64,000 nucleotides of DNA from an uncultured Gemmatimonadales bacterium (GTDB lineage: Bacteria; Gemmatimonadota; Gemmatimonadetes; Gemmatimonadales; Gemmatimonadaceae): assembly GCA_963851265.1 (NCBI GenBank), contig CAWKNZ010000005.1, positions 160,001 to 224,000 of the forward strand, read 5' to 3'. A program made the translations under genes and the position numbers. This document shows positions 1-59,567 of this stretch, piece by piece. Below the pieces are notes generated by a model. It was not told the DNA's origin, ran no database searches, and was given only the letters and a program-made list of their open reading frames with translations. Each line of letters begins with the position of its first letter. Position 1 is the first letter of the stretch.

Positions 1-638
1 TCTCGCTCCGCGTCGCGTCCACGGCGACGCTGATCGCGGCGGCGTTCGGCGTGCCGCTCGCGTGGCTGCTCGCGCGCCGCCGCTTCCCCGGGCGTGGGGC
101 ACTCGAGCTGCTCGTCCTCCTCCCGATGGTGCTGCCCCCCACGGTGCTCGGCTACTACCTGCTGGTGGTCGTCGGTCGGCCGGCGCCGTTAGGCCGCCTC
201 GTGGAGGCGGTCTTCGGGCGGCCCGTGGTGTTCACGCCGGCCGCGGCGGTGCTCGCGACCACGGTGGCCGCGTCGCCCTTCCTCGTTCGCGCGGCGCAGG
301 CCGGGTTCGAGCAGGTGGACGCCGTGTTCGAGGACGCGGCGCGCACGCTCGGGCGGTCGGAGCTGTCGGTGTTCCTGACGGTGACCGTGCCGCTCGCCGC
401 GCGCGGGATACTCGCCGGCGCGGCGCTCTGCTTCGCGCGCGCGATGGGCGAGTTCGGCGCCACGCTGATGCTCGCCGGCAACATCCCCGGGCGCACGCAG
501 ACGGCGAGTCTCGCGGTGTACGACGCCTTCGAATCGGGCGACGCGTCGCGGGCGGCGTGGCTCGCCGGGCTGCTCTCCGTCACCGCGCTCTGCGCGCTCG
601 CGCTCCTCGCGTACGGCGGCCGCCGCGCGGCGTCGTGA
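1..638 (+). CDS. modB: Molybdate ABC transporter permease (probably 5'-truncated by the window edge)
   Basis: LPMVLPPTVLGYYLL and FARAMGEFGATLMLAGNIPGRTQT motifs, EAA-like loop; the frame appears open back to the window start. Confidence 0.92.
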   Translation, partial: SLRVASTATLIAAAFGVPLAWLLARRRFPGRGALELLVLLPMVLPPTVLGYYLLVVVGRPAPLGRLVEAVFGRPVVFTPAAAVLATTVAASPFLVRAAQAGFEQVDAVFEDAARTLGRSELSVFLTVTVPLAARGILAGAALCFARAMGEFGATLMLAGNIPGRTQTASLAVYDAFESGDASRAAWLAGLLSVTALCALALLAYGGRRAAS

Positions 639-1282
639 GCGGGCTAGAAGTGCGCGTCCGACGCCAGCTGCCCGGCTTCGCGCTCGACGTCGCGTTCGCG
701 GTGCCGGGCGGGGTGGCCGCGATCGTCGGACCGTCGGGGGCGGGGAAGACGCTCACGCTGCGCGCCGTGGCCGGACTGCTGCGTCCCGATGCCGGGCGTA
801 TCGCCTGCGGCGGACGCGCGCTCTACGACCGAGACGCCAGCGTGGACCTCCCCGCGCGCGCGCGGCGCGTGGGGTACGTGTTTCAGCAGTACGCCCTGTT
901 TCCGCATCTCACGGTGGGCGCGAACGTGGCGTACGGACTCGGCGGCCCGCGCGCGGCACGTGCCGCGCGCGCGGCCGAGTTGCTCGCGCTGGTGGGGCTG
1001 CCCGACATGGAGCGGCGGCGCCCGCGCGAGCTGTCGGGTGGCCAGCAGCAGCGTGTCGCGCTCGCCCGCGCGCTCGCACCCGACCCCACACTCCTGCTCC
1101 TCGACGAGCCCCTCTCCGCCGTCGACGCGCCGCTCCGCGCTCGCCTCGGCGACGAACTGCTCGCGCTCCACGCCCGCACCGGTGTACCCATGTTGTTCGT
1201 GACCCACGACCCCGCCGAGGCGCGGCGCGTCGCCGACGTCGTCGTCCGGCTCGAGGCCGGCCGCGTGGTGTGCGTCGCGTGA
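635..1282 (+). CDS. modC: Molybdate ABC transporter ATP-binding protein
   Basis: Walker A GPSGAGKT, LSGGQQQR signature, Walker B LLLLDEP; GTG at 635 overlaps the modB stop. Confidence 0.88.
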   Translation: MSGLEVRVRRQLPGFALDVAFAVPGGVAAIVGPSGAGKTLTLRAVAGLLRPDAGRIACGGRALYDRDASVDLPARARRVGYVFQQYALFPHLTVGANVAYGLGGPRAARAARAAELLALVGLPDMERRRPRELSGGQQQRVALARALAPDPTLLLLDEPLSAVDAPLRARLGDELLALHARTGVPMLFVTHDPAEARRVADVVVRLEAGRVVCVA

Positions 1283-2448
1283 GCGGGACGGTCGGGGTCG
1301 ACGCCGCGCGCCACGCGCGACAGATCGCGCTCCCGCACGTTGGGGCCGCGGGACAGGCGCGCCTGCGCCGTGCCCGCGTGCTGCTCGTCGGCGCGGGGGG
1401 GCTCGGCTCGCCCGCCGCACTCTACCTCGCCGCGGCCGGCGTGGGGCACCTCGGGATCGTCGACCCCGACCGGGTCGCGCTGCACAACCTGCAGCGGCAG
1501 CTCCTGCACGGCACGGCGGACGTGGGGCGCCTGAAGGTGGAGAGTGCGCGCGACCGGCTGCGCGCGCTCGACCCCGGGGTCGAGGTCGCGGCCCATGCGT
1601 TGCGCCTGACCGCGGCCAACGCACTCGACCTCGTGCGCGGGTACGACGTCGTGGTCGACGGCTCGGACAACCTGCGCACCCGCTACCTCACGAGCGACGC
1701 GTGCGTGCGGCTCGGGGTGCCTAACGTGTACGGCGCCGTGTTCCGGTTCGAGGGGCAGGCCACCGTGCTGGCCGCGTCCGGCGGCACCGACGGGCCGGGG
1801 CCGTGTTACCGGTGCCTCTTCCCCGTCCCACCGCCGCCCGGCACCACGCCTTCGTGCGAGGCGAGCGGGGTGCTCGGCGTGCTTCCGGGGCTCGTCGGGA
1901 CGATCCAGGCGGCCGAAACGCTGAAGCTGCTGCTCGGCGTCGGGGAGCCGCTCGTTGGGCGGCTGCTCATGGTCGACGGGCTGCGCATGGACTTCCGCAC
2001 GATGCGCGTGCGGCGCGACCCGGCGTGCCCGGCGTGCGGGGCGGGCGCGCGCCGCGATGGCCCGCTCGCCGACGAGTCGGTCGAGGACCCGTGCGGCGAC
2101 CCGCAGGGCGAGACGGCGGACGCCGACGAGGTGACGCCCCGGGAGCTCGCGGCGCGGCTGGCGGCCGGCGAGGACATCCAACTCGTCGACGTGCGCGAAC
2201 CGTGGGAGTACGCGCTCGCGCGGCTGCCGGGGGCACGGCTCACTCCGTTACGCACGCTCGGTGCGGCGGCGGCCGACCCGGCGGCGTTCGACCGCGGGCG
2301 CGCGGCCGTGGTCTACTGTCACCACGGCGCGCGCGGGCGCCGCGCGCTCGACGCGCTCCGGGCCGCGGGCGTGGGGCGCGTCGCCAACCTCGCCGGCGGC
2401 ATCGACCGGTGGAGTGCGGAGGTCGACCCGGCGCTGCCGCGCTACTGA
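1279..2448 (+). CDS. moeB: Molybdopterin-synthase adenylyltransferase with C-terminal rhodanese domain (MoeB/MoeZ type)
   Basis: GAGGLGS, NLQRQ, CYRC...CPAC Zn motifs, rhodanese VYCHHGARG and NLAGGIDRW. Confidence 0.9.
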   Translation: MSGTVGVDAARHARQIALPHVGAAGQARLRRARVLLVGAGGLGSPAALYLAAAGVGHLGIVDPDRVALHNLQRQLLHGTADVGRLKVESARDRLRALDPGVEVAAHALRLTAANALDLVRGYDVVVDGSDNLRTRYLTSDACVRLGVPNVYGAVFRFEGQATVLAASGGTDGPGPCYRCLFPVPPPPGTTPSCEASGVLGVLPGLVGTIQAAETLKLLLGVGEPLVGRLLMVDGLRMDFRTMRVRRDPACPACGAGARRDGPLADESVEDPCGDPQGETADADEVTPRELAARLAAGEDIQLVDVREPWEYALARLPGARLTPLRTLGAAAADPAAFDRGRAAVVYCHHGARGRRALDALRAAGVGRVANLAGGIDRWSAEVDPALPRY

Positions 2449-2538: not shown

Positions 2539-3063
2539 TCAGCCGCCGTCCGCCGCGCCCTCCCGGCGCCAGTGCCCGCTCCGCCCGCCCGACTTCTCGA
2601 GCAGGCGCACATCGGTGATCGTCATCGCGCGGTCGGCCGCCTTGACCATGTCGTACACGGTGACGAGCGCGACCGTCGCGGCGACGATCGCCTCCATCTC
2701 GACGCCGGTGCCGGCGACCGTGCGGGCCGTCGTCTCGACGCGGACGCCCGGAAGCGCGTCGTCGAGCGCGAGGTCCACCTGCAGGTCGCTGAGTGGTACG
2801 GGGTGGCAGAGTGGGACGAGGTCCGCGGTGCGCTTGGCCGCCATCACCCCCGCCACGCGCGCCACGCCGAGCACGTCGCCCTTCGCGATCGCGTTGTCGC
2901 GGACGAGGGCGAACGCCGCGTGGCTCATCACGATCGCGCCCGCGGCGCGCGCGACGCGCGTGGTCGCCGGCTTGGCCGACACGTCGACCATCCGCGCCGC
3001 GCCGTCCTCGCCGACGTGCGAGAGGGTGGGCGCCGTCGCGTCTGGCCCGTCGCCCGCGCTCAC
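2539..3063 (-). CDS. moaC: Cyclic pyranopterin monophosphate synthase
   Basis: LSHV...MVDVSAK, KGDVL, LVPLCHP, TGVEMEA, YDMVKA, KSGG; GTG start chosen at 3063. Confidence 0.93.
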   Translation of the reverse strand: MSAGDGPDATAPTLSHVGEDGAARMVDVSAKPATTRVARAAGAIVMSHAAFALVRDNAIAKGDVLGVARVAGVMAAKRTADLVPLCHPVPLSDLQVDLALDDALPGVRVETTARTVAGTGVEMEAIVAATVALVTVYDMVKAADRAMTITDVRLLEKSGGRSGHWRREGAADGG

Positions 3064-3978: not shown

Positions 3979-4643
3979 GCGGCCGACATGAGAGGGCAGT
4001 GCGCGAGGGCGTGGCCGGGGGCGTCCCGGAAGCCGTCCCCGTGGTGCTCGCGTCGCAGTCTCCGCGTCGGCGCGACCTCTTGACGCTGGTCGGCATCGCG
4101 CACGTCGTGCGCCCGGCCGACGTCGACGAGTCGGTGCGCCCGGGCGAGGCGCCCGACGCGTACGTGGAGCGCCTCGCGCGTGAGAAGGCGCAGGCCGTGG
4201 CGGCGGTGGTCGGTCCGGAGTCGGTCGTGGTCGCCGCCGACACGACGGTGGTGGTCGACGGCCAGATCCTCGGCAAGCCCGGGGACGCGGCCGAGGCGCG
4301 GGCGATGGTCGCGCGGCTGGCGGGTCGCACGCACGAGGTGTTCACCGGGATGGCGGTGCGCCGCGGCTCGCCGGCCCGGGAGGCCGCCGGAGTCGAGCGC
4401 GTGCGCGTCACCTTCCGCGCGTTAGGCGATGGCGAGGTCGCCGCGTACGTGGCGACCGGCGAGCCGATGGACAAGGCCGGCGCGTACGGCATCCAGGGGT
4501 ACGGCGCGACGATCGTCGAGCGAATCGAGGGCGACTACTTCGCGGTGATGGGGCTGTCGCTCGTGCGCCTCGTCGCGCTGCTCGCCGAGGTGGGGGTCGC
4601 GTACGCGTTCGGCGGCGCGCTGCGCCCGTCAGACGCCGGCTGA
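3975..4643 (+). CDS. maf: Maf family nucleoside triphosphate pyrophosphatase
   Basis: [33 protein letters not shown]. Confidence 0.93.
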
Positions 4644-4865
4644 GGGGCGGGGCCCGCATCGTGCAGCGGCGGCGCGCACCGCGTTCCCCATCAAGTGCTC
4701 CGCCATGAGCGACCCGCTCCGCCTCCCGCACGCCGCCAAGCACGCGGCGAAGACCGCGGCCAAGCGCGTCGCGGGCGGGCGCGAGCCGCGCCGCCTCGCG
4801 GAACCGGAGGGCCGGCGCGGGCTGTCCGCGGGGCCGGGCGGGCCCCGCGCGCTGCCGCCGGGGCG

Positions 4866-5963
4866 TTAGGCGTCGCCGGCGGGCGCCCTACGCCCCGCGT
4901 AGCGCGCCCGCCAGCGCTCCACGCGCGTCAGCACGTCCGCGACGGTGATCCGCCCCATCCGCCCCGGCCGGTTCTCCATCGTCGGCGCGTAGTCCTCGCC
5001 GGGGTCGCCGTACGCGTCGACCATGAGGTCGTGGAAGCGCCGGTACGGCCCCACCCGTTTGGGGTTGGAGTAGGCGATGAGCGACACCACCGGCCGGTCG
5101 AGGGCGACCGACACGTGCAACGGCCCGGTGTCGGGCGAGAGCACGAGCGCGGACCCGTCGAAGATCCCGACGAGCCCGCGCAGTCCGCTGCCTAACGCGG
5201 AGACGACGGGGGCGCGCGCCGCGCCGAGGATCACCCGCTCGGCGGCGAGTTCGCGCGGCGTGCGGCCGCCGACGAGCACCGGCTGCAGCCCGTAGTCGTG
5301 CCAGAGCGCGTCGCACACCGCGGCCCAGCGGTCGGGCGGCCAGTCCTTCTCCGGCTTGCTCGTCGCGACGACCACGGCTGCGACCGGACGCTCGACGCGC
5401 GCGAAGAACTCGGCCTGCGCGGCGCGCTCGTCGGCGCGCGGACCGAGGTCCCACACCGGCGGCTCGGCGTGAGGCACGCCGAGCGCGTCGAGGAACTCGA
5501 AGTACTGGTCCTGCACGTGCTGGACGGGGTGCGCCGGGACGCGTGCGTTGGTGAACGCCCAGTTGAAGTCGCGCGCCCGCGCGCGGTCGAAGCCGAGCCG
5601 CACGCGCGCCGGCGTGAGCGCGGTGATCACGCCCGCCTTGAGGTACACCTGCAGGTCGAGGCAGCAGTCGAACGGGCCGCGCGCCGCGAGTGCGCGACGC
5701 ACGCTGCGGTAGGCGCCGAGCCCGGCCCCGCGCTCGAACAGGACGATGTCGTCCACCGCCGGGTGCCCCCGCACGAGCGACGCGGGCCCGGGCTGCAGCA
5801 CCCACGTCACGCGCGGCGGCTCCGGCAGCCGTCGGAGCGCCGTGAGCAGCGGAAGCACGTGCACCGCGTCGCCCACGGCGCTCATCATCACCACGCACAC
5901 CGAGCGGAGCGGCACGCCCGCGTACGGCGCGCGCGGGTCGCGCGCGGACGGCTCCCTCCTCAC
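4866..5963 (-). CDS. Glycosyltransferase family 9 (LPS heptosyltransferase-like)
   Basis: SAVGDAVH, KDWP, DTGPLH motifs. Confidence 0.88.
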   Translation of the reverse strand: MRREPSARDPRAPYAGVPLRSVCVVMMSAVGDAVHVLPLLTALRRLPEPPRVTWVLQPGPASLVRGHPAVDDIVLFERGAGLGAYRSVRRALAARGPFDCCLDLQVYLKAGVITALTPARVRLGFDRARARDFNWAFTNARVPAHPVQHVQDQYFEFLDALGVPHAEPPVWDLGPRADERAAQAEFFARVERPVAAVVVATSKPEKDWPPDRWAAVCDALWHDYGLQPVLVGGRTPRELAAERVILGAARAPVVSALGSGLRGLVGIFDGSALVLSPDTGPLHVSVALDRPVVSLIAYSNPKRVGPYRRFHDLMVDAYGDPGEDYAPTMENRPGRMGRITVADVLTRVERWRARYAGRRAPAGDA

Positions 5964-5964
5964 G

Positions 5965-6940: not shown

Positions 6941-8722
6941 TCACGCGCCAGCCGCGCCCGTGGCGTGCTCGCCGGTGACGCCGAGCGCGGCGCGCTCGAC
7001 GTCTGCCGCGGTGGCGCGCGCGGCGAGCGCGTCGAGGTCCAGGCGATAGGCGGGTGCGGCGTTGCCGTCGCCCTGGTCGGCCCCGTCCAGTACCGAGCAC
7101 AGGGGCACCGGCTCGCCAGCGAGATTGCCGCGGAGCGCGCGGCGGAGGGCGTCGCTGAGGAGGATCTCGTCCGGGCCCGCCGTGTCGCACAGTCGACTGG
7201 CCTGGTTTACCGCGGCGCCGATGACGGTGAACTCGAGGCGGCGCTCCGAGCCGATGTTCCCGGCGAACACCTCGCCGTAGGCGAGGCCGATTCCCATGCG
7301 AAGCGGCGGGCGCCCGCGCAGGATGACCCGGTCGCGGTTGAGCGCGCCGAGCGCCTCGTGCATCGCGACGGCGGCGCGCAGCGCGCGGTCGGCGTCGTCG
7401 GGGCTGGATTCCGGGGCGCCCCACTGCGCCATCACGCAGTCGCCGATGAACTTGTCGAGCGTGCCGCCGTGCCGGAACACGCATTCGACCATCGCCGAGA
7501 GGAACTCCGAAAGCGTGGCCGCCACGTCGTCGGGCGTCATCGTCGCGGCGAGGCGCGTGAAGCCGCGGAGGTCGGCGAACAGCACGGCCACGGTTCGCCG
7601 CTCGCCGCCGGGGAGCGCGGGGGCGTCGCTCGCCGCGATCCGCGCGGCCACGGGGGGCGCGAAGTAGCGGGCGAAGTTCTCGCGCGACACGGCCTCGCGC
7701 CGCACGCGCTCGGCGAGGCGCGCGTTCTCGAGCGCGGCCGCGGCCACCCCAGCGAACGCGGTGAGGAAGTCGAGGTCCGCCTCCGCGAACGCGCGCACCG
7801 GGTCGGCGCTGTCGACGTAGAGGGCGCCTAACGGCACGCCGTCCGCGGCGAGCAGCGGCGCGCACATCGCCGACCGCACCCGCTGCCGCAGCACGCTCTG
7901 GCCGCCGAAGCGCGGGTCGGCCGCCGCGTCCACCGAGAGCAGCGCGGCGCGTCTGCCGAGCGCGGCGCGCGCGATCGAGCGGGGCAGGGGGACCGCGCCC
8001 GAGGCCGTGAGGTCCGCGCCCCACCGGTCGCGCGCGACGGCGGGCACGAGGGCGACGTCCGCGGCGCCGTAGTCCGGGTCCGGACCGCGCGGCCCGGTCG
8101 CGTTCGGCTCGTCGGCGTAGCTCACGGCGCGGAACACCGCGGCGCGGTCGGCGTCGAGCGTGCGGAGCGCGGCCGTCACGACGCGCTCGTGCACCGCCGC
8201 GGGGTCGATCGCACCGCCGAGCGCCTTCGCGGCCTCCAGCAGGAGCGCGAGCCGGCGGGCCGTGAGCTCGTGGGGCGCTTCGGCCCCGCGTTCCGCGACG
8301 ATCGGCGGCTCCACGCCCGCCTCGGGCGCCGCCGCCGACGGGAGCGGCGCGGCCACCGTCCCGGCCGCTCCCGCGCCGCCCACCCCCGCGGCGCCCACCC
8401 CGGCGCCGCCCGTGCCGCCGTAGACCGCGAACTCCGACGTCTCACGCTCCACGCGGAGCGCGACCACGCCGAACGTCACCGTGTCGCCCGCGCGCAGCCG
8501 CGCCGTCTGCACGCGGATGCCGTTGCGGTACGTCCCGTTGCGCGAGCCGAGGTCGTGCACGACGAGGTGGTCGCGCGCGCCGATCAACTCCGCGTGGCGG
8601 CGCGACACCGTGGGGTCGTCGAGCGGCAACGCGCACTCCGCCGCGCGCCCGACGACGAGCGCGCCGCCTTCGGCGAGCGCGGTGATCCGCACGCCCGCGG
8701 TGTCGGCGAGGAAGAACGGCAT
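6941..8722 (-). CDS. Class III adenylate cyclase with N-terminal FHA and GAF domains
   Basis: FHA (VGR...VSRRHA...DLGSRNGT), GAF (SAMCAPL...GALYVD), cyclase (FADLRGFT, DKFIGD, FTVIG..VNQASRL). Confidence 0.88.
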   Translation of the reverse strand: MPFFLADTAGVRITALAEGGALVVGRAAECALPLDDPTVSRRHAELIGARDHLVVHDLGSRNGTYRNGIRVQTARLRAGDTVTFGVVALRVERETSEFAVYGGTGGAGVGAAGVGGAGAAGTVAAPLPSAAAPEAGVEPPIVAERGAEAPHELTARRLALLLEAAKALGGAIDPAAVHERVVTAALRTLDADRAAVFRAVSYADEPNATGPRGPDPDYGAADVALVPAVARDRWGADLTASGAVPLPRSIARAALGRRAALLSVDAAADPRFGGQSVLRQRVRSAMCAPLLAADGVPLGALYVDSADPVRAFAEADLDFLTAFAGVAAAALENARLAERVRREAVSRENFARYFAPPVAARIAASDAPALPGGERRTVAVLFADLRGFTRLAATMTPDDVAATLSEFLSAMVECVFRHGGTLDKFIGDCVMAQWGAPESSPDDADRALRAAVAMHEALGALNRDRVILRGRPPLRMGIGLAYGEVFAGNIGSERRLEFTVIGAAVNQASRLCDTAGPDEILLSDALRRALRGNLAGEPVPLCSVLDGADQGDGNAAPAYRLDLDALAARATAADVERAALGVTGEHATGAAGA

Positions 8723-10276: not shown

Positions 10277-10425
10277 GGACGTGACCGGCCGGGATGAGAG
10301 GGGACCGGGATCAAACCGGAGATGAAGCGGCCGGAATGCGATTGCCGCGGATACTACCTCAGCGGCGCGGCGCCTGCGGCGCGGCGCCTGCGGCGCTCGC
10401 CCGGGGACCCCCGCTAAACTGCGGG

Positions 10426-17462: not shown

Positions 17463-17466
<4 letters not shown>
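16753..17466 (-). CDS. engB: Ribosome biogenesis GTPase YihA/EngB
   Basis: [25 protein letters not shown]; directly downstream of lon. Confidence 0.93.
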
Positions 17467-20180
<2,714 letters not shown>

Positions 20181-20381
20181 CGCCGCAACCTAATCAGACC
20201 CGGACCCGGACTCGGACCAGAGCCGGCCGTGATCGGCCAGGCGGGGGATTGCCGGGGTGATCGCTTGCTGCTCGCCCGGCGATGGGGCAACGAACGTGCG
20301 ACGGGCGGCTTGCCGTGAACACTCCATCCCCCGACCGGCGGCGACCGGTCGGACGTGGCCGCCGGTCGCCGCCCCGTTCCG

Positions 20382-21662
<1,281 letters not shown>

Positions 21663-26247: not shown

Positions 26248-26277
26248 CCGGCCGTCCAGGCGCGCCGCGCGGCGCGC

Positions 26278-28784: not shown

Positions 28785-28832
28785 GGGCGGAGATGATGGG
28801 CGCGGTGAGGCGGGCGCGTTAGGCGGTGTGCG

Positions 28833-30205: not shown

Positions 30206-31810
<1,605 letters not shown>

Positions 31811-41985: not shown

Positions 41986-42031
41986 CGACGCGTTCGCACG
42001 CCTAACGGCGCGCGAAGCCTAACGGCGGGCG

Positions 42032-46460: not shown

Positions 46461-46484
46461 GGGCGGCGGCGTGGGGCTGCGACG

Positions 46485-47183
46485 TTAGGCCGGGGCGGGC
46501 GCGTCGGCCGGCGCCGCGTCGCGGCGGTCGGCGAGGCGGCGCTGGATCTTCGCGACGATCATTTCGATCGCGACGGCGTTGTGCCCGCCGCGTGGCACGA
46601 TCACGTCGGCGTGCCGCTTGCTGGGCTCGACGAACTGCTGGTGCATCGGGCGCACGGTCGTCAGATACTGCTCCAGGATCTCCTCGAACGGCCGCCCTCG
46701 CTGTCCCATGTCGCGGCGCAGGCGCCGGATGACGCGCACGTCGGCGTCGGCGTCCACGTAGACCTTCACGTCGCAGAGCTCGCGCACGCGCGCATCCACG
46801 AACAGCAGGATTCCGTCGACGACGACCACGTCGGCCGGCGCGACGGCGACGGTGTACGGTGCGCGCACGTGCTCGGCGAAATCGTACACCGGCTTGTCGA
46901 CCGGCTCGCCGCGCGCCAGACGCTGCAGGTGACCGATAAAGAGGTCGAAGTCGAAGGCGTCGGGGTGGTCCCAGTTGACGCGCCGCCGCTCCGCCGATGG
47001 CAGGTGCGCGAAGTTCTTGTAGTACGCGTCCATGTCGACGAAGGCCACCGATGCGCGGCGCAGCGTCTCCGCGACCTTGCGCGCGACGGTCGACTTGCCC
47101 GAGCCCGACCCGCCGGCGATCCCGATCACGAGCGGCTTCGGTGACGCGCCGTACGACCGATCCGCCCCGCCGGGCGTGCTCAT
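46485..47183 (-). CDS. udk: Uridine kinase
   Basis: GIAGGSGSGKS, NWDHPDAFD, RRLRRD, FVEPSK.HAD. Confidence 0.93.
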   Translation of the reverse strand: MSTPGGADRSYGASPKPLVIGIAGGSGSGKSTVARKVAETLRRASVAFVDMDAYYKNFAHLPSAERRRVNWDHPDAFDFDLFIGHLQRLARGEPVDKPVYDFAEHVRAPYTVAVAPADVVVVDGILLFVDARVRELCDVKVYVDADADVRVIRRLRRDMGQRGRPFEEILEQYLTTVRPMHQQFVEPSKRHADVIVPRGGHNAVAIEMIVAKIQRRLADRRDAAPADAPAPA

Positions 47184-48551: not shown

Positions 48552-49444
48552 TGGGCCTGCCCCCGTCCGGCCTCATGCCGCCCGACGTGTCGGCCGACGT
48601 CGCGGCAGCGGTCCGCTACGGCGCGGCCGCGGCGCGCGCCGCGGCCGCCGCGGTGCGCGACCGCCTCGGCCTCGCGGACGGCGCCGCGCCCGCCTGCGCG
48701 ATCGTGCTCGGCTCGGGGCTCGGCGACCTCGCGGGCGACGTGGCGGACGCGCGACGCGTGCCGTTCGCCGACGTGCCGGGCTTCCCACCGGCGACCGTCG
48801 AGGGACACGCCGGCGCCCTCCTCAGCGGCGCGCTCGGAGGCCGGCCGGTGCTCCTCCTCGCCGGGCGCTTCCACCTGTACGAGGGGCACCCCGCGCCGCT
48901 CGCCGCCTTCGCGGTGCGCGTCGTGCACGCGCTCGGCGCGCGCACGCTCTTCCTCAGCAACGCCGCCGGCGGCGTGCGCCGCACGTTAGGCCCTGGGGAC
49001 CTCATGGTGATCGCCGACCACCTCAACCTGACCGGACGCAACCCGCTCGTCGGGCCGCTCCAGGACGGCGACCTCCGATTCCCCGACATGTCGGAGCCGT
49101 ACGACGGCCGGCTGCGCGCGCGGCTGCGCGACGCCGCGCGCGCCACAGGGGTGCCGGTCGCCGAGGGCGTCTACGCCGGGCTCCTCGGCCCGAGCTTCGA
49201 GACGCCCGCCGAGGTGCGGATGCTCGAGCGGCTCGGCGCCGACGCCGTCGGCATGTCGACCGTGCCCGAGGCGATCGTCGCGCGTGCGTTAGGCATGCGC
49301 GTGGCGGGGGTGAGCCTCGTGACCAACGCGGCGAGCGGGCACACCGGGCAGGCGCTCACGCACGCCGAGGTTCTCGAGGCCGGCCGGGAGGCGTCGGCGC
49401 GGTTCCGGGCGCTGGTGACGGAGTTCGTGCGGCGGTTGGAGTGA
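48551..49444 (+). CDS. punA: Purine nucleoside phosphorylase (trimeric type)
   Basis: VLGSGLG, GRFHLYEG, NAAGG, GPSFETPAE, GMSTVPE. Confidence 0.92.
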   Translation: MGLPPSGLMPPDVSADVAAAVRYGAAAARAAAAAVRDRLGLADGAAPACAIVLGSGLGDLAGDVADARRVPFADVPGFPPATVEGHAGALLSGALGGRPVLLLAGRFHLYEGHPAPLAAFAVRVVHALGARTLFLSNAAGGVRRTLGPGDLMVIADHLNLTGRNPLVGPLQDGDLRFPDMSEPYDGRLRARLRDAARATGVPVAEGVYAGLLGPSFETPAEVRMLERLGADAVGMSTVPEAIVARALGMRVAGVSLVTNAASGHTGQALTHAEVLEAGREASARFRALVTEFVRRLE

Positions 49445-53717: not shown

Positions 53718-55112
53718 GTGACGCTCCTCGCTCCCGGCCCCTCGTCCGGCCCGCCGTCGGACGGTTCCGCCGACGAGCACCGGTCCGTGCAGCCGGCCTC
53801 GCCGGCCGCGGCGGCCGGTGAAGCCGCGGTCGCACACGACCCGCGCGTCCCCCCGCCGGTCCCCGACGAGGAGCAGAAGCTGCAGGCGCTGCGCAGCATG
53901 CAGCGCCGCGCGACCGGCCTGTTGATCGCCGCCGCCGTGCTCTTCGTCGTCGCGCGCGCGCTCGAGGCAGCCCACCCCTGGGTGGCCTACGTGCGCGCGT
54001 TTGCCGAGGCGGCGATGGTCGGCGGGATCGCCGACTGGTTCGCGGTCACGGCGCTCTTCCGCCATCCGTTAGGCATTCCGATCCCGCACACGGCCATCGT
54101 GCCGGCGCGCAAGGACCGGATCGGCCGCTCGCTCGGCAAGTTCGTGCAGCAGAATTTCCTCTCGCGCGAGGTGGTCGGCGCCAAGCTCGCCGCGGCGCGC
54201 CCGGGAGAGCGCGCCGCGCGCTGGCTCGCCGAGCCCGCGCACGCGCGGCTGCTCGCCCGGCAGGTCGCGGTGGCGCTCTCGGGCGCGGCCGAGGTGTTGC
54301 GGGACGACGACGTGAACGCGTTCGTCGAGCGCTCGCTCGTCTCGCGGCTGCGCAAGGTGCAGGCGGGCCCGCTCGTCGGCCGGGCGCTGTCGCTGCTCAC
54401 GGCCGACGGCCGCCATCAGGAGCTCCTCGACGAGGCGCTCCGCATCACGGCACGCGGCGTCGCGACCAACCAGGACGTCATACGCGCGCGCATCGCCGCG
54501 GAGGCGCCCTGGTGGGTGCCGGGCGCGGTCGAGGACAAGCTCCACCAGAAGATCATCGACGGACTCGAGCGCACGCTGCAGCAGGTGAGCGCCGACCCGC
54601 ACCACCCGCTGCGCGCGCGCTTCGACGACGCGGTGCAGCAGTTCGCCGAGCGCCTGCGCACCTCGCCCGAGACGATCGAGCGGGCGGAGGCGGTGAAGGA
54701 GGAGCTGCTCGCGCACCCGGCCGTGCGCGAGTACGCCGGCGGCCTCTGGGGCGACGTGAAGCGCGCCCTCGCGCGCCAGGCCGAGACGTTAGGCCACGCC
54801 GACGAGGGCGACGCGCCCAACGCGATCGAGCGGGGGCTCACGTCGCTCGCCGGCACCGCGCTCGCGGACCGGGCGCTCGCGGCGAAGCTCGACGGCTGGA
54901 TCGTCGAGGCGGTGCTCGCCGTGATCGAGCAGTACCGCGACGAGGTGAGTCAGCTGATCGAGAGCACGGTCGCGGGCTGGGACCCCGCGGCCACGTCGCA
55001 CCGGATCGAGGTGCAGATCGGGCGGGACCTGCAGTTCATCCGGATCAACGGCACGCTGGTGGGCGGGCTCGTCGGGGTGGCACTCTACGCGATCGGGAGG
55101 ATCGTCGGGTAG
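53718..55112 (+). CDS. DUF445 family membrane protein
   Basis: EAAMVGGIADWFAVTALFRHPLG, DLQFIRINGTLVGG. Confidence 0.88.
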   Translation: MTLLAPGPSSGPPSDGSADEHRSVQPASPAAAAGEAAVAHDPRVPPPVPDEEQKLQALRSMQRRATGLLIAAAVLFVVARALEAAHPWVAYVRAFAEAAMVGGIADWFAVTALFRHPLGIPIPHTAIVPARKDRIGRSLGKFVQQNFLSREVVGAKLAAARPGERAARWLAEPAHARLLARQVAVALSGAAEVLRDDDVNAFVERSLVSRLRKVQAGPLVGRALSLLTADGRHQELLDEALRITARGVATNQDVIRARIAAEAPWWVPGAVEDKLHQKIIDGLERTLQQVSADPHHPLRARFDDAVQQFAERLRTSPETIERAEAVKEELLAHPAVREYAGGLWGDVKRALARQAETLGHADEGDAPNAIERGLTSLAGTALADRALAAKLDGWIVEAVLAVIEQYRDEVSQLIESTVAGWDPAATSHRIEVQIGRDLQFIRINGTLVGGLVGVALYAIGRIVG

Positions 55113-55156: not shown

Positions 55157-57829
55157 CTAGGCGTCCTCGCTCGCCCTCCGCTCCGTTCCGCCCTCCTCCG
55201 CGTTCCGCGCCCCCGGCGTCCGGTGGTGCTGTCCAACGGCCAGCGTGTCCCCATCGGCGAGCGCCGCGCTTTCGGTCGCGGCCTCCGCGGCGAGGTCTGC
55301 CCGCGGCACCACCGCCGGCAGCAGCGCGATCCGCAGCACCTCGTCCATCGCGGAGACGAACGTGAACGTGGTCCCCTCCCGGACCTCCGTCGGTACGTCG
55401 CGCAGGTCCTTCTCGTTCGCCTTCGGCAGGAGCACCTCGCGCAGCCCGGCGCGGTACGCGGCGAGCACCTTCTCCTTCACGCCGCCGATCTCCAGCACCT
55501 TCCCGCGCAGCGTCACCTCGCCGGTCATCGCGAGGTCGCGCCGCACCGGCCGGCGTGAGAGGACGCTCGCGATCGCCAGCGTGATCGCGATCCCCGCCGA
55601 CGGCCCGTCCTTGGGCACCGCCCCCGCCGGGAAGTGCACGTGGATGTCGTGCTCCTTGAACGCGCGGTCCTCGACTCCCAACGTGGTCGCGCGCGAACGC
55701 ACGTACGAGAGCGCCGCGTCGACGCTCTCGCGCATCACGTCGCCGAGTTGGCCGGTGACCGTGAGCTTGCCCGTGCCCGGCATGCGCAGCGCCTCGATCG
55801 ACATCAGGTCGCCCCCGGTGCTCGTCCAGGCGAGCCCCGTCACGACGCCGACCTCGGCGTCGCGCTCCGCCGCCTCGGCCGCGTAGCGCGGCGGTCCCAG
55901 CACCTCCTCGACCGCGGCATGGTCGAGCACCCACGCCGCCTCGTCCCCCTCGGCCTTGCGCCGCGCGCGCTTGCGCATGAGCGTCGCGAGGTTGCGGCCG
56001 AAGTTGCGAAGCCCCGCCTCGCGCGAGTAGCGGTTGGCGACGAACGAGAGGATCTCGTCGGTGAACACGATGTCGTGCTCGACGAGGCCGTGGTCGTCGA
56101 GCAGCTGCGGGATCGTGTAGCGCCACGCGATCTCGACCTTCTCCTCGACCGTGTAGCCCGCGATGCGGATCACCTCGAGCCGGTCGCGCAGGGGGCCCGG
56201 GATGTCGTACAGGTTGTTGGCCGTGCAGATGAACAGCACCTGCGACAGGTCGAACGGCAGGTTGAGGTAGTGGTCGACGAACGTCGAGTTCTGGTTGGGG
56301 TCGAGCACCTCGAGCATCGCCGCCGTCGGGTCGCCCGCCGGGCCCCCGCCGCTCATCTTGTCGATCTCGTCGATGAGGAACACCGGGTCCTTCACCGCGA
56401 CGCGCCGCATCGCCTGCACCAGCAGCCCCGGCATCGACCCCACGTAGGTACGCCGGTGGCCGCGGATCTCCGCCTCGTCGCGCACGCCGCCCACCGAGAT
56501 GCGGTAGAACTGCCGCCCGATCGCCTTCGCGATCACCTCGCCTAACGACGTCTTTCCCGTGCCCGGCGGGCCCGCGAAGCAGAGGATCGGGCCCGACGAG
56601 CGTCCCCCCTTGAGCTTGCGCACCGCGAGGTACTCGACGATCCGGTCCTTGGCCTCGCTCAGCCCGTAGTGCCGCTCGCCCAACGCGTCCTCGACCTTCC
56701 GCAGGTCGATCTCCGGCGGCTCGTCCGCGGCGTGCCACGGCAGCGCGAGCACCCAGTCGAGGTAGGTGCGCACCACCTGGTACTCGCTCGACGCGGTCGA
56801 GAGCATGCGCAGCCGCTCGACCTCGCGTCGCGCCTCGGCCGCGACGCGCTCGGGGAGGTTCGCGTCCTCGATGCGCTTGAGGATCTCGCTCGATTCCTTC
56901 TCGCCCGGGTCGGTCTCGCCCAACTCGGTCTGGATCGCGCGCAACTGCTGCCGCAGGTAGAACTCGCGGTGGTGCTGCTCGATCTTGATCTCGGTCTGCT
57001 TCTTCACCTGCTCCATCACCTGCGCGCGCCCCACTTCGCGCTCCAGCCGCGAGAGGATGAAGCGCAGCCGGTCGGCGACGTCGAGCTTCTGCAGCACCTC
57101 GTCCTTGTCGGCGATGCGCAGGTTCATGTTGGTCGCGGCGAGGTCGGCGAATCGCCCCGGGTCGCTCACGTTCATCCGGAGGATCGCGGGCACCTCGTCC
57201 GGGATCCGCTCCACGAGCGTCGAGAGCGTCTCGGCCGCCGACACCACACGCGTCACGAGTTCGTCGACCGCCGTACGCGAGGCCTCAGCGCCGATCGCCT
57301 CCGCGCCGGTGGATTCCGCGTCGGTCGAGTCGGCGCCGGTCGCGCCCGCTCCGGTCGCGCCCGCGCCGGTCGCGGCCGCGCCGGTCGCGTCCGCGCCGGT
57401 CCCGTCCGCGCCGGTCCCGTCCGGGTCCTCGTCCGGCGCCAGCAGGTCGTACGCCGGCGACACGCGCGCGATCGGATAGGGCGTCACCTGCTCGACCGCG
57501 TCGATGCGGATGCGGCGCAGCCCCTGCAGCGTGATCTGCACCGTGTCGCCGGGCAGGTTGATGCGTTCGTGCACGCGCGCGGCCACGCCGATCCGACCGA
57601 GGAAGCGCTCGTTGTCGATCGGCTCCTCGTATTCGCCGTGCGCGACGACGAGAGCGACGATCTCGCCCGGCGCGTCGTGCGCGCGCAGTAGTGCGAGGTT
57701 CTCCGGCGCGCCCATCTGCACGGCGATCGTGCCGAGTGGGTAGACGATCGTCGAGCGCAGCGCCATGAGCGGCAGCGTCGGCGGCAGTTCGGAGTGCAGG
57801 ATCTCGTCCTTGCGCTGTGATCGGGCCAT
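55157..57829 (-). CDS. lon: ATP-dependent protease La (copy 2)
   Basis: [34 protein letters not shown]. Confidence 0.94.
57284..57418. repeat. Nine degenerate 15-nt tandem repeats inside lon copy 2
   Basis: Units like GTCCGCGCCGGTCGC encoding [45 protein letters not shown]. Confidence 0.85.
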
Positions 57830-58217
57830 GCGACGGGAACGGTGGTGCGGGACGGGGCAGCGTGCGGCTGCCGCAATTTGGCACCGTTCACCGGCCGTGT
57901 GCGACTTGCCCCGCAGCCGCGGCGCGCCCCGCGGCGGAACGTGCGCTGTGGCGTCGCGCGCGCGTTGGGCCGAGACCCGGTAGCACTGCGTCGCCACGTC
58001 GGGCGTTCGGTGTGGCTTGCTCCTCAAACGACGCGTCGGTACACTCGCCGTCTGCGGCAGGTGACCACGGCGATCGGGGTCGCCGGCGTGATCGGCGCCA
58101 TGTGGGCGCTCGCGCCGTTCGTCCGCCGCGTGAGCGCCTGCGTGGCCCGCGCCGGTCCGGGGCGCCAAACCCGCTCCGTTGTAGAAGTGTAAGCGGCACC
58201 ATAGTTTACACCGCCTT

Positions 58218-59567
58218 ATGTTCGACGAGCTGACCGACAAACTCGAGCAGACCTTCGCCCGCCTACGCGGCAAGGGCACGCTCACCGACGCCGACATCAA
58301 GGAAGGGCTGCGCGAGGTCCGACGCGTCCTCCTCGAGGCCGACGTGAACTTCCAGCTCACGCGCGAGTTTCTCGAGCGCGTCGAGCAGGCGGCCGTCGGC
58401 GTCGCGCAGCTCAAGGGCGTCAACCCCGCCCAGCAGCTCGTCAAGATCGTCTATGACGAGCTGCGCAAGATGCTCGGTGAGCAGCGCGAGGGGCTCAAGC
58501 TGAGCACCATCCCGCCGACCGTCGTGATGATGGTCGGGCTGCAAGGCTCGGGCAAGACGACCACCGCGGGCAAGCTCGCGCGCAAGCTCAAGATGGAGGG
58601 GCGGCAGACCAGCCTCGTCGCCGGCGACGTGTACCGCCCCGCGGCCATCGACCAGCTCGAGACCGTGGGCAAGCAGGTGGGCGCGCAGGTGTACGCCAAC
58701 CGCGGCACGCAGGACGTCGTGCGAATCGCGCGCGAGGGGATCGAGCAGGCCAAGCGCGACCGCGACCGCGTCGTGATCGTCGACACCGCCGGCCGGCTGC
58801 AGATCGACGCCGAGCTGATGGACGAGCTCCGGCGCGTCAAGGCGGCCGTGCAGCCCACCGAGATCCTCTTCGTCGCCGACGGGATGACGGGGCAGGAGGC
58901 GGTGCGCATCGCGCAGGGCTTCGACGAGGCGTTAGGCGTCACCGGCGTGATCCTCACCAAGATGGACGGCGACGCCCGCGGCGGAGCGGCGCTCTCCATC
59001 TACGGCGTCATCAAGAAGCCGATCAAGTACGTCGGCGTCGGCGAGAAGCTCGACGCGCTCGAGGACTTCCACCCGGACCGCATGGCCGGCCGGATCCTCC
59101 AGCAGGGCGACGTGCTCACCCTGGTCGAGAAGGCGCAGGCCGTCTTCGACCAGGACGAAGCGAAGCGGATGGAGAAGAAGGTCCGGAAGGAGGGCATGGA
59201 CCTCGAGGACTTCCTCACCGCGATGAAGCAGATGCAGAAGCTCGGGCCGCTGGAGAACCTGCTCAAGCTGCTGCCGGGGGTGAACTCGGCGATGCTCAAG
59301 CAGATCAAGATCGACCCCAAGCGCATGAAGCACGTCGAGGCGATCATCCTCTCGATGACGCCCAAGGAGCGCAAGAAGCCCGACCTCATCAACGGGTCGC
59401 GGCGGCTGCGCATCGCGAAGGGCTGCGGACGGCCGGTGCAGGAGGTCAACGCCCTGCTCGACCAGTTCCGCCAGATGCAGAAGATGATGAAGAAGATGTC
59501 CGGGGGCCCGGGCGGACGCCCGCCGCAGCTCCCGGGCATGCCGCGGATGCCGTTCGGCCCGCGGTAG
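58218..59567 (+). CDS. ffh: Signal recognition particle protein
   Basis: [19 protein letters not shown], Met-rich M domain. Confidence 0.97.

What the first reader, a model, noticed from the sequence alone, without database searches (positions are those of the whole stretch)
187..58937. Highly iterated non-palindromic octamer CGTTAGGC: candidate DNA-uptake or HIP1-like signature
Seen: 24 exact copies counted by eye. Thirteen read CGTTAGGC (187, 4420, 4864, 11789, 12284, 20380, 28817, 46483, 48984, 49287, 54067, 54787, 58930) and eleven read GCCTAACG (1719, 5190, 7826, 17964, 18858, 21185, 26276, 31223, 42000, 42017, 56540). A simple base-composition estimate at about 75% GC gives about 2. Fifteen sit in CDS as NCG-TTA-GGC (Pro/Ala/Ser/Thr-Leu-Gly), using a TTA codon that is otherwise very rare here. 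Four supply stop codons, two lie in other frames and three are intergenic. Known: non-palindromic DUS/USS of Neisseria and Pasteurellaceae and palindromic HIP1 of cyanobacteria are embedded in coding DNA like this, while Chi and KOPS are strand-polarised. Inference: the 13:11 strand split argues against Chi/KOPS. It fits an uptake sequence, a protein-binding site, or a motif fixed by methylation/repair. I know of no description of this motif. A prepilin peptidase and a GspE/PilB ATPase are also in the window, which is compatible with competence but does not show it.
Basis: partly seen in the sequence, partly recalled or inferred. Interest (0 to 1): 0.85.

Follow-up and report, generated by a model that had tools for sequence, protein, structure and literature searches.

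The report
Genome-wide DNA word CGTTAGGC, uptake-tag-like
This soil bacterium and some of its relatives have written one short DNA word, (C)GTTAGGC, into ordinary genes, stop codons and spacers far more often than chance, much like the "self tags" of Neisseria and Haemophilus; the word is spelled like the recombination core of integron gene cassettes, and what reads it is unknown.

Summary
All 24 copies lie at the stated coordinates, 13 on + and 11 on -, against 1.04 expected. The genome holds 1396 copies against 50-145 expected.

- **Acts on DNA, not on translation.** With protein sequence and codon usage held fixed, the word is 11-47x enriched in all four open frames on both gene strands. 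It also supplies stop codons and lies in spacers.
- **No strand polarity**.
- **No sign of conversion repair or methylation.** No neighbouring word is depleted. Vsr and a C5 methylase were not found. N6 methylases do not track the word.
- **Patchy spread.** 63 of 201 sampled family genomes are rich, at 0.1-1.3 copies per kb. No rich genome was found outside the order.
- **Turnover is by synonymous codon changes.** Sister species are gaining copies, while this genome lost 32 and gained at most 12 on one contig.
- **Integron link.** The word equals the R box of the order's integron attC sites. Integrase presence does not track richness.

My best reading, at about 0.45, is an uptake- or recombination-biased self tag like DUS/USS; uptake was not tested. 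Earlier follow-ups of this scan reported the same word on other windows of this genome.

The parts
187..194 (+). word copy, sense frame CCG-TTA-GGC (Pro-Leu-Gly) in an ABC-transporter permease gene
1719..1726 (-). word copy, antisense to a ThiF-family gene (1270-2448 +), read there as nnG-CCT-AAC-G (Pro-Asn)
   Evidence: frame worked out from coordinates
4420..4427 (+). word copy, sense frame nCG-TTA-GGC in a Maf-like gene
4864..4871 (+). word copy supplying the TAA stop (GCC-TAA-C on the - strand) of a heptosyltransferase-family gene 4866-5963
5190..5197 (-). word copy, sense frame GCG-TTA-GGC (Ala-Leu-Gly) in the same glycosyltransferase gene
7826..7833 (-). word copy, sense frame CCG-TTA-GGC in an FHA-GAF-cyclase gene
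11789..11796 (+). word copy, sense frame CCG-TTA-GGC in gene 10294-12531
12284..12291 (+). word copy, sense frame TCG-TTA-GGC in gene 10294-12531
17964..17971 (-). word copy, sense frame GCG-TTA-GGC in lon (17463-20180)
18858..18865 (-). word copy, sense frame TCG-TTA-GGC in lon
20380..20387 (+). word copy supplying the TAA stop codon of clpX (GCC-TAA-C on the - strand)
21185..21192 (-). word copy in clpX, sense frame CTC-GTT-AGG-CTG (Leu-Val-Arg-Leu). The protein is unchanged in all 28 aligned orthologues. The word stands at this site in G000, G003, G004 and G012.
26276..26283 (-). word copy supplying the TAG stop (CGT-TAG-GC) of an amine-oxidase-family gene 26278-28230
28817..28824 (+). word copy just upstream of the start of a carotenoid-synthesis gene (27819-28784 -); treated as intergenic
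31223..31230 (-). word copy, sense frame CCG-TTA-GGC in an HtrA-type protease gene
42000..42007 (-). intergenic word copy, first of two direct copies 17 bp apart. It lies between convergent genes, at the right edge of a 4.8-kb stretch missing from both sister genomes.
42017..42024 (-). intergenic word copy, second of the pair; a G+C-rich hairpin follows (42038-42067)
46483..46490 (+). word copy supplying the TAA stop of a uridine-kinase-family gene 46485-47183 (-)
48984..48991 (+). word copy, sense frame nCG-TTA-GGC in a PNP_UDP_1 phosphorylase gene
49287..49294 (+). word copy, sense frame nCG-TTA-GGC in the same phosphorylase gene
54067..54074 (+). word copy, sense frame CCG-TTA-GGC in a DUF445 gene
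54787..54794 (+). word copy, sense frame ACG-TTA-GGC in the DUF445 gene
56540..56547 (-). word copy, sense frame TCG-TTA-GGC in a second lon paralogue (55157-58444)
58930..58937 (+). word copy, sense frame GCG-TTA-GGC in ffh (SRP54)

Best explanation
(C/T)GTTAGGC is a signal in double-stranded DNA that does not depend on strand. It is kept at high density across the chromosome by a directional force acting on the whole 7-8 bp word. The most likely force is the one described for DUS of Neisseriaceae and USS of Pasteurellaceae: a component of DNA uptake or processing prefers fragments that carry the word. Homologous recombination of such fragments then spreads word-bearing alleles wherever the protein code tolerates them, mostly at Leu-Gly, Pro-Asn, Ala-stop and spacer positions.

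Shown here:
- the word is real and hyper-abundant;
- it acts at the DNA level;
- it is unpolarised;
- copies avoid each other at short range;
- it arises and is lost by synonymous point changes;
- it is being gained in sister species;
- it is confined to some genera of one order.

Inferred, not shown: that uptake or recombination bias is the force, and which protein reads the word.

In this particular genome the force looks weak or gone. On contig C5 it lost 32 ancestral copies and gained at most 12.
For: **Abundance.**
- The window has 24 copies against 1.04 expected.
- The genome has 1396 against 50-145 under Markov orders 0-3, and the word is the top 8-mer at order 3.
- The core GTTAGGC has 1762 copies against 96 expected. 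Position -1 is C in 79% and T in 14%. The flanks show only codon periodicity, so this is not a repeat element.

**DNA level.** The control holds protein sequence and codon usage fixed.

| Frame | Observed | Expected | Share of capable sites |
|---|---|---|---|
| nCG-TTA-GGC (sense) | 603 | 12.9 | 16.6% of 3628 |
| C-GTT-AGG-C (sense) | 52 | 1.4 | |
| G-CCT-AAC-G (antisense) | 170 | 13.5 | 23.9% of 712 |
| GC-CTA-ACG (antisense) | 58 | 5.2 | |

- 149 of 460 TAA stops and 79 of 922 TAG stops lie in the core.

**No polarity.** The genome has 708 forward and 688 reverse copies. Local ratios follow gene orientation. Three blocks of 313-340 kb from three species give 73:61, 105:143 and 94:117.

**Spacing.**
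- Gaps under 400 bp are at 0.2-0.7 of expectation.
- Gaps of 0.4-3.2 kb are at 1.13-1.23.
- A relatively even distribution of USS is described as an expected result of molecular drive (PMC7811141, passages read).

**Frame bias as in known uptake sequences.** One dominant frame, all frames used, and orientation to transcription unimportant (PMC2817400, passages read).

**Turnover.**
- In clpX the protein reads LVRLL in 28 of 28 orthologues. G000, G003, G004 and the distant rich genus g9 read GTT-AGG there; the others read GTC/GTG-CGN.
- Three-way site patterns over contig C5, in the order G000, G004, G001, are 111:41, 110:18, 101:13, 011:32, 100:12, 010:58 and 001:36.
- The alternative states at those sites are mostly GCTCGGC (51) and GTTGGGC (38).

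**Taxonomic pattern.**
- 63 of 201 sampled family genomes hold at least 0.1 copies per kb, up to 1.3.
- Richness is mostly consistent within a genus.
- Outside the family, only one genus of a sister family (g110) and G030 are rich.
- In the phylum sample of 301 genomes, no genome of families f4-f12 is enriched.

**Machinery.** ComEC is present in G000. ComEA-like proteins, DprA, secretins and pilins are present in 5 of 5 genomes tested.
Against: - No uptake experiment exists, and I found no report of natural transformation in this phylum.
- The competence-type genes are equally present in the two word-poor genomes tested, so they do not discriminate.
- No member of the ComP_DUS family is over its cut-off in 0 of 5 genomes.
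- Two word-poor relatives, sampled at 200 kb each, carry no alternative hyper-abundant dispersed word. The 'dialects' known from Neisseriaceae (recalled) were therefore not seen.
- The proteome effect is small. The ratio of [APST]-Leu-Gly to its reverse is 1.27-1.44 in rich genomes against 1.19-1.22 in poor ones. Known uptake sequences give about 2-fold.
- Retention of ancestral copies is only modestly above background. It is 0.57, 0.76 and 0.70 for G000, G004 and G001, against 0.64, 0.70 and 0.64 for all 7-mers.
- The exact identity with the integron R box is not explained by this reading.
- A selected in-vivo binding site would predict most of the same statistics.
Confidence: 0.45

Rival explanations
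1. The word is the in-vivo binding site of an abundant chromosomal or recombination protein, and each copy is kept by weak selection. The only protein family known to read this exact word is the integron integrase, which binds GTTRRRY R boxes. Under this reading the copies could serve as decoys that soak up integrase, or as half-sites for integrase-type recombination.
For: - The word equals the R' box, and its complement the R'' box, of the attC sites in a cassette array of a relative (G021:C95). That array holds 29 GTTAGGC and 24 GCCTAAC in 27 kb, with R''...R' pairs about 95 nt apart.
- The Y at -1 fits too. R' there reads C-GTTAGGC, and the complement of R'' mostly reads T-GTTAGGC.
- By my own arithmetic, the chance that a random 7-mer is exactly this one on either strand is about 1 in 8000.
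- Integron integrase is very common in the family, found in 128 of 201 genomes at E<=1e-40.
- Copies avoid each other most strongly at 50-200 bp, which is the length range of attC sites (recalled).
- The three sister species rank the same way by gain/loss of copies and by state of the integrase gene. G004 has intact genes and gained 58 while losing 13. G001 has a broken gene, 36 against 18. G000 has a gene split by an insertion, 12 against 32. That is only three genomes.
Against: - Integrase presence does not track richness. A near-full-length hit (E<=1e-100) is found in 35 of 63 rich and 63 of 124 poor genomes, Fisher p=0.64. Relatives are not independent and the assemblies are incomplete.
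- Of the 19 richest genomes, 5 have no hit and 6 only partial ones. The hit in G012 is broken by two frameshifts.
- The chromosomal copies have no attC-like partner or hairpin.
- Published genome insertion sites of integrases need only GWT plus other motifs, not the R box (bioRxiv 10.1101/2022.09.11.507474, passages read).
- Enrichments of 11-47x are far above the 3- to 5-fold I recall for selected dispersed sites such as Chi.
Confidence: 0.22
2. The word is a by-product of DNA methylation coupled to mismatch repair, as proposed for HIP1 of cyanobacteria or the very-short-patch repair of Dcm sites in E. coli.
For: It is a short, exact word found in all frames. The analogy with HIP1 is recalled; no call tested it.
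Against: - G000 has no Vsr (PF03852) and no C5 methylase (PF00145), at 94% completeness.
- G000 has only fragmented PF02384 genes and no PF01555. The rich sister G001 (97% complete) has neither, while many poor genomes have both.
- No one-letter neighbour of the word is depleted. Converting neighbours at one position could not raise a 7-8 bp word 24-fold.
- The word is not a palindrome.
Confidence: 0.06
3. The word is a strand-polarised chromosome signal such as Chi (recombination hotspot) or KOPS (FtsK guide).
For: It is an over-represented 8-mer at about one copy per 3 kb, the same scale as Chi in E. coli (recalled).
Against: - No polarity beyond gene orientation in G000 or in blocks of 313-340 kb of three species.
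- RecC was found in only 1 of 31 relatives and not in G000.
- The genome's GC skew is weak, so replichores could not be drawn independently.
Confidence: 0.03
4. The word is a translational signal: a rare TTA codon in a fixed context used for regulation, as with bldA in Streptomyces.
For: 70% of TTA codons lie in the word, and most genic copies are in the sense frame.
Against: - The word is also 11-13x enriched in the two antisense frames.
- It supplies stop codons on both strands.
- It lies in spacers at a density similar to that in genes.
- It sits in housekeeping genes such as lon, clpX and ffh.
Confidence: 0.01

Closest known systems
DNA uptake sequences: USS of Pasteurellaceae (9-bp core) and DUS of Neisseriaceae (10-12 bp, read by the minor pilin ComP)
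   Same: - A short, non-palindromic, exact word at 0.3-1.3 copies per kb.
- Equal numbers on both strands.
- Written into genes in all frames, with one dominant frame.
- Also found in spacers.
- Fewer close pairs than chance.
- Restricted to related genera, with differing densities.
- Turnover by point changes.
   Different: - Uptake bias is untested and transformation is unknown in this phylum.
- No ComP-family hit.
- No alternative word in the two poor relatives sampled.
- The word is shorter (7-8 bp) and is the AT-rich exception in a 73% G+C genome.
- The effect on the proteome is much weaker.
- Copies are not paired as terminators; only 6 of 16 close pairs are inverted.
- The word coincides with the integron R box.
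Integron attC / attI core sites (R box GTTRRRY, inverse core RYYYAAC)
   Same: Identical spelling, including the preferred base before the word. The same order carries long cassette arrays bounded by it, and most family genomes encode an integron integrase.
   Different: The chromosomal copies are single and lie in conserved housekeeping codons. They have no partner box, hairpin or cassette. They arise by synonymous substitution, not by insertion. Integrase presence does not track them.
HIP1 (GCGATCGC) of cyanobacteria
   Same: A hyper-abundant octamer embedded in coding DNA in all frames, of unexplained origin (recalled).
   Different: HIP1 is a palindrome and has been linked to methyltransferases (recalled). 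Here the word is not a palindrome, and no methylase tracks it.
Chi and KOPS
   Same: Over-represented octamers read on DNA.
   Different: Those are strand-polarised and only a few-fold enriched (recalled). This word is unpolarised and 24-fold enriched.

Membership tests
DUS/USS-type uptake sequence | Hyper-abundant exact short word, about equal on both strands, dispersed genome-wide | tested here: met
   1396 copies against 50-145 expected; 708 forward and 688 reverse; flanks unrelated
DUS/USS-type uptake sequence | Present in all usable reading frames with a strong frame bias; orientation to transcription not decisive | tested here: met
   Enriched 11-47x in all four open frames; frame nCG-TTA-GGC dominates. 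Compared with PMC2817400, passages read.
DUS/USS-type uptake sequence | Relatively even spacing | tested here: met
   Gaps under 400 bp at 0.2-0.7 of expectation and 0.4-3.2 kb at 1.13-1.23. One outlier gap of 45 kb.
DUS/USS-type uptake sequence | About two-fold enrichment of the tripeptides that the word encodes | tested here: inconclusive
   Ratio of [APST]LG to its reverse is 1.27-1.44 in three rich genomes against 1.19-1.22 in two poor ones
DUS/USS-type uptake sequence | Under-represented in recently acquired DNA | tested here: inconclusive
   The 4.8-kb stretch 37282-42086, missing from both sister genomes, has no copy inside, but that is too short to count. The only significant word-free stretch is ordinary origin-region DNA.
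DUS/USS-type uptake sequence | Related lineages carry variant words (dialects) | tested here: not met
   No dispersed hyper-abundant word in 200 kb each of G066 and G057. This method finds the word easily in 200 kb of G000. Only 2 poor genomes were sampled.
DUS/USS-type uptake sequence | Competence machinery (type IV pilus, secretin, ComEA, ComEC, DprA) | tested here: met
   ComEC is in G000. HHH_3, DprA, secretin and N_methyl pilins are in 5 of 5 genomes, including two poor ones, so this does not discriminate.
DUS/USS-type uptake sequence | Known receptor family (ComP_DUS, PF16732) | tested here: not met
   0 of 5 genomes over the cut-off. The USS receptor of Pasteurellaceae is itself unknown (recalled).
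DUS/USS-type uptake sequence | Preferential uptake or transformation by word-bearing DNA | not testable with these tools
   Needs an uptake or transformation assay in a cultivated word-rich strain
Integron attC/attI site | R-box spelling GTTRRRY / RYYYAAC | tested here: met
   GTTAGGC / GCCTAAC, the same as in the cassette array of G021:C95
Integron attC/attI site | Paired R''-L''...L'-R' imperfect inverted repeat of about 60-140 nt, in a cassette array or next to intI | tested here: not met
   No conserved flanks. Close pairs are depleted; only 16 pairs of the 8-mer lie within 60 bp, of which 3 are in the R''...R' order. No array lies next to the G000 intI.
Integron attC/attI site | Depends on an integron integrase | tested here: not met
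   35 of 63 rich against 63 of 124 poor genomes have a near-full-length hit, p=0.64. The G000 intI is split by an insertion.
HIP1-type / methylation-linked word | Palindromic word that overlaps a methylase site, with a methylase that tracks it | tested here: not met
   The word is not a palindrome. PF00145 is absent from G000. PF02384 and PF01555 do not track richness.
VSP-repair-driven word | Vsr endonuclease plus depletion of the T-for-C neighbour | tested here: not met
   No Vsr; no depleted neighbour
Chi / KOPS | Co-orientation with replication | tested here: not met
   RecC was found in 1 of 31 relatives.

The most novel reading that the evidence does not exclude
Under this reading these bacteria would have an uptake or recombination preference tuned to the 7-mer that bounds every gene cassette of their order. 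Cassette arrays carry two copies per roughly 600 bp, so they would be the best-tagged DNA in the environment. The chromosome would then have become tagged as a side effect of the same bias. That would link natural transformation and integron cassette traffic through one DNA word. It would also supply a pool of R-box half-sites inside and at the ends of ordinary genes: 32% of TAA stops read GCC-TAA-C, the spelling of the box that opens an attC site. Such half-sites bear on the open question of how new cassettes arise.
Probability: 0.15. Interest if true: 0.9.

Novelty: new variant of a known kind. Interest (0 to 1): 0.75.

Why it matters
Sequence-specific self tags for DNA uptake are known from only two families of Proteobacteria, and how they arise is still debated. 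A third, independent case would offer a natural experiment. It lies in a soil phylum with no known transformation, its density ranges from near zero to 1.3 copies per kb among sister genera, and it is visibly being gained in some species and lost in others.

The pattern of rich and poor genera gives a direct route to the unknown reader by phylogenetic profiling. Useful contrasts are one poor species inside a rich genus (G122 in g56) and one rich genus inside a poor family (g110 in f2).

The exact match to the integron R box is either a 1-in-8000 coincidence or a link between chromosome-wide sequence evolution and the cassette system.

In practice, the word distorts codon usage, stop-codon choice and k-mer statistics in these genomes. 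That matters for binning and for gene calling.

Tried and rejected
1. **A conserved word-free zone at the origin.** The only significant word-free stretch in G000 is 45,086 bp at C1:182876-227962. The mean gap is 2.6 kb and the next largest gap is 22 kb. It holds gidA, parA, parB and mnmE. I tested whether the word is kept out of the ParB/origin zone. In 5 of 5 other rich genomes (G004, G001, G055, G175, G163) copies lie within 1.3-6 kb of parB, and the largest gaps are 7-12.5 kb elsewhere. The idea is rejected. The stretch is genus-typical DNA, 80% identical to the sisters inside and 86% outside, and remains unexplained.
2. **Dialects.** None in G066. In G057 the top words (AGACCTAGAC and its like) come from tandem 13-mers in inverted pairs at three loci, so they are a local regulatory-type repeat and not a dispersed word.
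No association with richness.
4. **Methylases, Vsr and RecC.** No association, or not found.
5. **Polarity read from the place lists of the genome search.** Those lists are capped per genome and appear to scan the + strand first, so I did not use them.
6. **Public sequencing runs.** No run held more than 0.23 of the sampled words of the 10-kb stretch searched. Only short contigs of relatives could be laid, so no statement about variation at word sites is possible.
7. **My attC detector.** It failed on the positive control (0 hits in the G021 array), so its zeros mean nothing. For G055 I report only that 12 same-strand copies lie between 860,129 and 872,856 beside intI. That fits an array, but I did not verify it.
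8. **Literature.** A search for the bare word returned primers only. No paper joined Gemmatimonadetes or Gemmatimonas with uptake sequences or natural transformation in the relevant sense.
9. **My composition-only ORF caller.** It misses genes whose stop-to-stop frame overlaps a neighbour; it missed 3 of the window's 15 in-frame copies. The genome-wide frame counts therefore cover only the 2589 ORFs it accepts.

Full report
**Observation.** Dinucleotide-preserving shuffles give 1.04 expected, with a largest value of 5 and 0 of 100 reaching 24. The window is 68-77% G+C. It is C5:160001-224000 of a 4.60-Mb assembly in 12 contigs. Its genes are ordinary housekeeping genes: two lon paralogues, clpX, clpP, trigger factor, dnaK, ppk, ppx, ffh, anthranilate synthase and a prepilin peptidase.

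This needed two genes that my composition-only caller had missed, recognised through Pfam: a Maf-like gene and a PNP_UDP_1 gene.

**Genome-wide.** The genome holds 708 forward and 688 reverse copies, one per 3.3 kb. Markov models of order 0-3 expect 50-145. At order 3 it is the most over-represented 8-mer (z 175). Models of order 4 and above absorb the signal because the sub-words themselves are rare outside it.

The core is GTTAGGC, with 1762 copies against 96 expected, and 1925 TTAGG exist in all. The base before the core is C in 79% and T in 14%. The base after it is G in 54%. Beyond that the flanks show only codon periodicity, so this is not a repeat element. Positions 2-8 tolerate no change. 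One-letter neighbours are at 0.4-3.7 of expectation and none is depleted enough to feed the word.

**DNA or translation?** In 2589 confidently called ORFs (3.52 Mb), 771 of 1109 TTA codons stand in G-TTA-GGC. I then held the protein sequence fixed and drew synonymous codons from the genome's own usage. This is conservative, because that usage already includes the word. Results:

| Frame | Observed | Expected | Share of capable sites |
|---|---|---|---|
| nCG-TTA-GGC (sense) | 603 | 12.9 | 16.6% of 3628 |
| C-GTT-AGG-C (sense) | 52 | 1.4 | |
| G-CCT-AAC-G (antisense) | 170 | 13.5 | 23.9% of 712 |
| GC-CTA-ACG (antisense) | 58 | 5.2 | |

Control words with one change are at 0.1-3.4 of expectation. 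With a looser gene call of 3586 ORFs, 149 of 460 TAA stops and 79 of 922 TAG stops lie in the core. Once the stop-codon copies are set aside, density outside called genes is about the same as inside. The signal therefore acts on DNA, on both strands. The apparent preference for the sense strand reflects which peptides and codons are cheap.

**Polarity.** Contig totals are balanced. In 100-kb bins the forward/reverse ratio follows the share of + genes. Three syntenic blocks of 313-340 kb from G000, G004 and G001 give 73:61, 105:143 and 94:117. In G004 both sense and antisense copies are denser in genes on the - strand, which is not what a replication-polar signal would give. RecC was found in 1 of 31 relatives. 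Chi- or KOPS-type readings are rejected.

**Spacing.** Gaps between core copies under 400 bp are depleted: 0.60, 0.54, 0.21, 0.31 and 0.72 of expectation across five bins. Gaps of 0.4-3.2 kb are slightly over-represented at 1.13-1.23. Only 16 pairs of the 8-mer lie within 60 bp, and 6 of those are inverted, so the copies are not terminator pairs as many DUS are. The pair at 42000/42017 in the window is one of the rare direct pairs. It sits between convergent genes, ahead of a G+C-rich hairpin.

**Relatives.** All five species of the genus are rich, at 0.30-0.47 copies per kb. In an even sample of 201 genomes of the family, 63 hold at least 0.1 per kb, 14 are intermediate and 124 hold under 0.02 per kb. 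The maximum is 1.3 per kb, in genera g9 and g69. In poor genomes the word is rarer than its reversed control, 5-40 copies against 100-400.

Richness is mostly a property of a genus, with exceptions. G122 has 66 copies, while three congeners have about 3500-4100. In a sample of 301 genomes of the phylum, the only rich genomes outside the family belong to genus g110 of family f2. No genome of families f4-f12 is enriched. G030 of family f3 is mildly rich. These tallies include seven genomes flagged as unpublished, only as rows; no named example rests on them.

**How copies arise.** In clpX the site at 21185 encodes Leu-Val-Arg-Leu-Leu in all 28 aligned orthologues. G000, G003 and G004 read CTC-GTT-AGG-CTG there, and so does G012 of the distant rich genus g9. 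G008 is one letter off. All the others use GTC/GTG/GTA/GTT with CGN.

I aligned the whole contig C5 with the syntenic DNA of G004 and G001. The three are about equally distant, at 83-84% identity. Site patterns in the order G000, G004, G001 are 111:41, 110:18, 101:13, 011:32, 100:12, 010:58 and 001:36. The letters at non-word orthologous sites are mostly GCTCGGC (51) and GTTGGGC (38), which are synonymous Leu codons.

By parsimony on a star tree:

| Genome | Ancestral copies lost | Copies gained (at most) |
|---|---|---|
| G000 | 32 | 12 |
| G004 | 13 | 58 |
| G001 | 18 | 36 |

Retention of copies shared by the other two genomes is 42/74, 41/54 and 41/59. For all 7-mers it is 0.64, 0.70 and 0.64, and for the preferred synonymous word GCTCGGC it is 0.52, 0.68 and 0.54. 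So the word is kept about as well as preferred-codon sequence although it is built from the rarest codons. It is clearly still accumulating in two sister species and is shrinking in this genome. The tree is unrooted and the region is 7% of the genome, so this needs a whole-genome repeat.

**The integron link.** Earlier follow-ups of this scan noted that the word is spelled like the integron core. I checked this. In word-poor relatives the few copies cluster in arrays. G021:C95:1-27000 holds 29 GTTAGGC and 24 GCCTAAC on one strand, as R''...R' pairs about 95 nt apart with the usual imperfect inverted repeat, every 0.5-1 kb. This is a classical cassette array. R' there reads C-GTTAGGC, and the complement of R'' mostly reads T-GTTAGGC, which mirrors the C/T preference genome-wide.

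Integron integrase (TIGR02249) is found at E<=1e-40 in 128 of 201 family genomes. It does not track the word. A near-full-length hit is present in 35 of 63 rich and 63 of 124 poor genomes (p=0.64). Of the 19 richest genomes, 5 have no hit and 6 only partial ones. The gene in G012 is broken by two frameshifts. That of G001 is partial with a stop. G004, G055 and G203 have intact genes.

In G000 the gene is split after model position 265 by about 2 kb that carries a large serine recombinase gene on the other strand. No array lies beside it. Published genome insertion sites of integrases need only GWT plus other motifs (passages of bioRxiv 10.1101/2022.09.11.507474).

**Other candidate readers or causes.**
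- Vsr and C5 methylase: not found in G000.
- N6 methylases: PF02384 occurs only as fragments in G000, is absent from G001, and is present in many poor genomes. PF01555 is absent from G000 and G001 and present in many poor genomes.
- ComP_DUS: none over the cut-off in 5 genomes.
- ComEC in G000, and ComEA-like proteins, DprA, secretins and pilins in 5 of 5 genomes including two poor ones. This is compatible with competence but does not discriminate.
- Alternative words in poor genomes: none in 200 kb each of G066 and G057, although the method recovers the word at z 34 from 200 kb of G000.
- Proteome effect: the ratio of [APST]-Leu-Gly to its reverse is 1.27, 1.44 and 1.42 in rich genomes and 1.22 and 1.19 in poor ones. 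This is weaker than the roughly two-fold effect reported for USS and DUS (PMC2817400, passages read).

**An anomaly that led nowhere.** The only gap beyond chance is 45 kb, at C1:182876-227962. It covers gidA, parAB and mnmE. It is not conserved in five other rich genomes, and it is genus-typical DNA.

**Verdict.** The finding is real, strong and acts on DNA. Its statistics match those of DNA uptake sequences better than those of any other known class, in a phylum where none is known. I found no description in the paper library. The scan itself has reported the same word at least seven times on other windows of this genome.

Noticed in passing
G000:C6:3005-6044 (outside the window; loci L001, L002): The genome's only integron integrase hit over the cut-off is split. 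Model positions 2-265 lie at 5244-6044 (-) and positions 260-313 at 3005-3166 (-). Between them, about 2 kb carries a large serine recombinase gene (Resolvase + Recombinase + Zn ribbon) on the + strand. No cassette array lies beside it.
   Followed up: partly
window 37282-42086: This stretch holds a TonB-dependent receptor (37762-40590) and an unassigned 461-aa gene (40600-41985). It lies between ppk and ppx and has no counterpart in the syntenic DNA of G004 or G001. At the same place G004 carries an integron integrase gene (G004:C1:366680-367612). The two tandem word copies at 42000 and 42017 lie at the right edge of the stretch.
   Followed up: partly
G000:C1:182876-227962: This 45-kb stretch has no copy of the word (mean gap 2.6 kb; about 5e-5 after correction). 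It has normal G+C and holds gidA, parA, parB and mnmE. The gap is not conserved in five other rich genomes. The stretch is a little more diverged from the sister species (80%) than its flanks (86%). It remains unexplained.
   Followed up: yes
L021:~8500-8600, L026:~8210-8300, L027:~9200-9280 (G057:C1): A word-poor relative carries, at three loci in 200 kb, inverted pairs of tandem 13-mers (AGCGTCTAGGTCT twice), about 40 bp apart. They look like binding sites of a regulator or the ends of a small element.
   Followed up: no
L005-L006 (G021:C95:1-27000): A long integron cassette array with about 95-nt attC sites of two sequence sub-types. It lies at the end of a 203-kb contig of a word-poor relative. 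Similar arrays show up in G019:C3 and G021:C43/C80 through the spacing of the hits.
   Followed up: partly
G000 genome-wide: Stop-codon choice is distorted by the word. 149 of 460 TAA stops read GCC-TAA-C, and 79 of 922 TAG stops read GT-TAG-GC. So 6% of called genes end in the word.
   Followed up: partly
G000:C7:771474-772281 and G000:C9:1095-1858: The only N6_Mtase (PF02384) matches in this genome are broken into two and four pieces in different frames. They look like decayed restriction-modification genes.
   Followed up: no
G122 against G064, G164, G196 (genus g56); genus g110 in family f2: Two sharp natural contrasts in word density. One species has 66 copies inside a genus whose other sampled species have about 3500-4100. 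One rich genus sits in a family in which every other sampled genus is poor.
   Followed up: no
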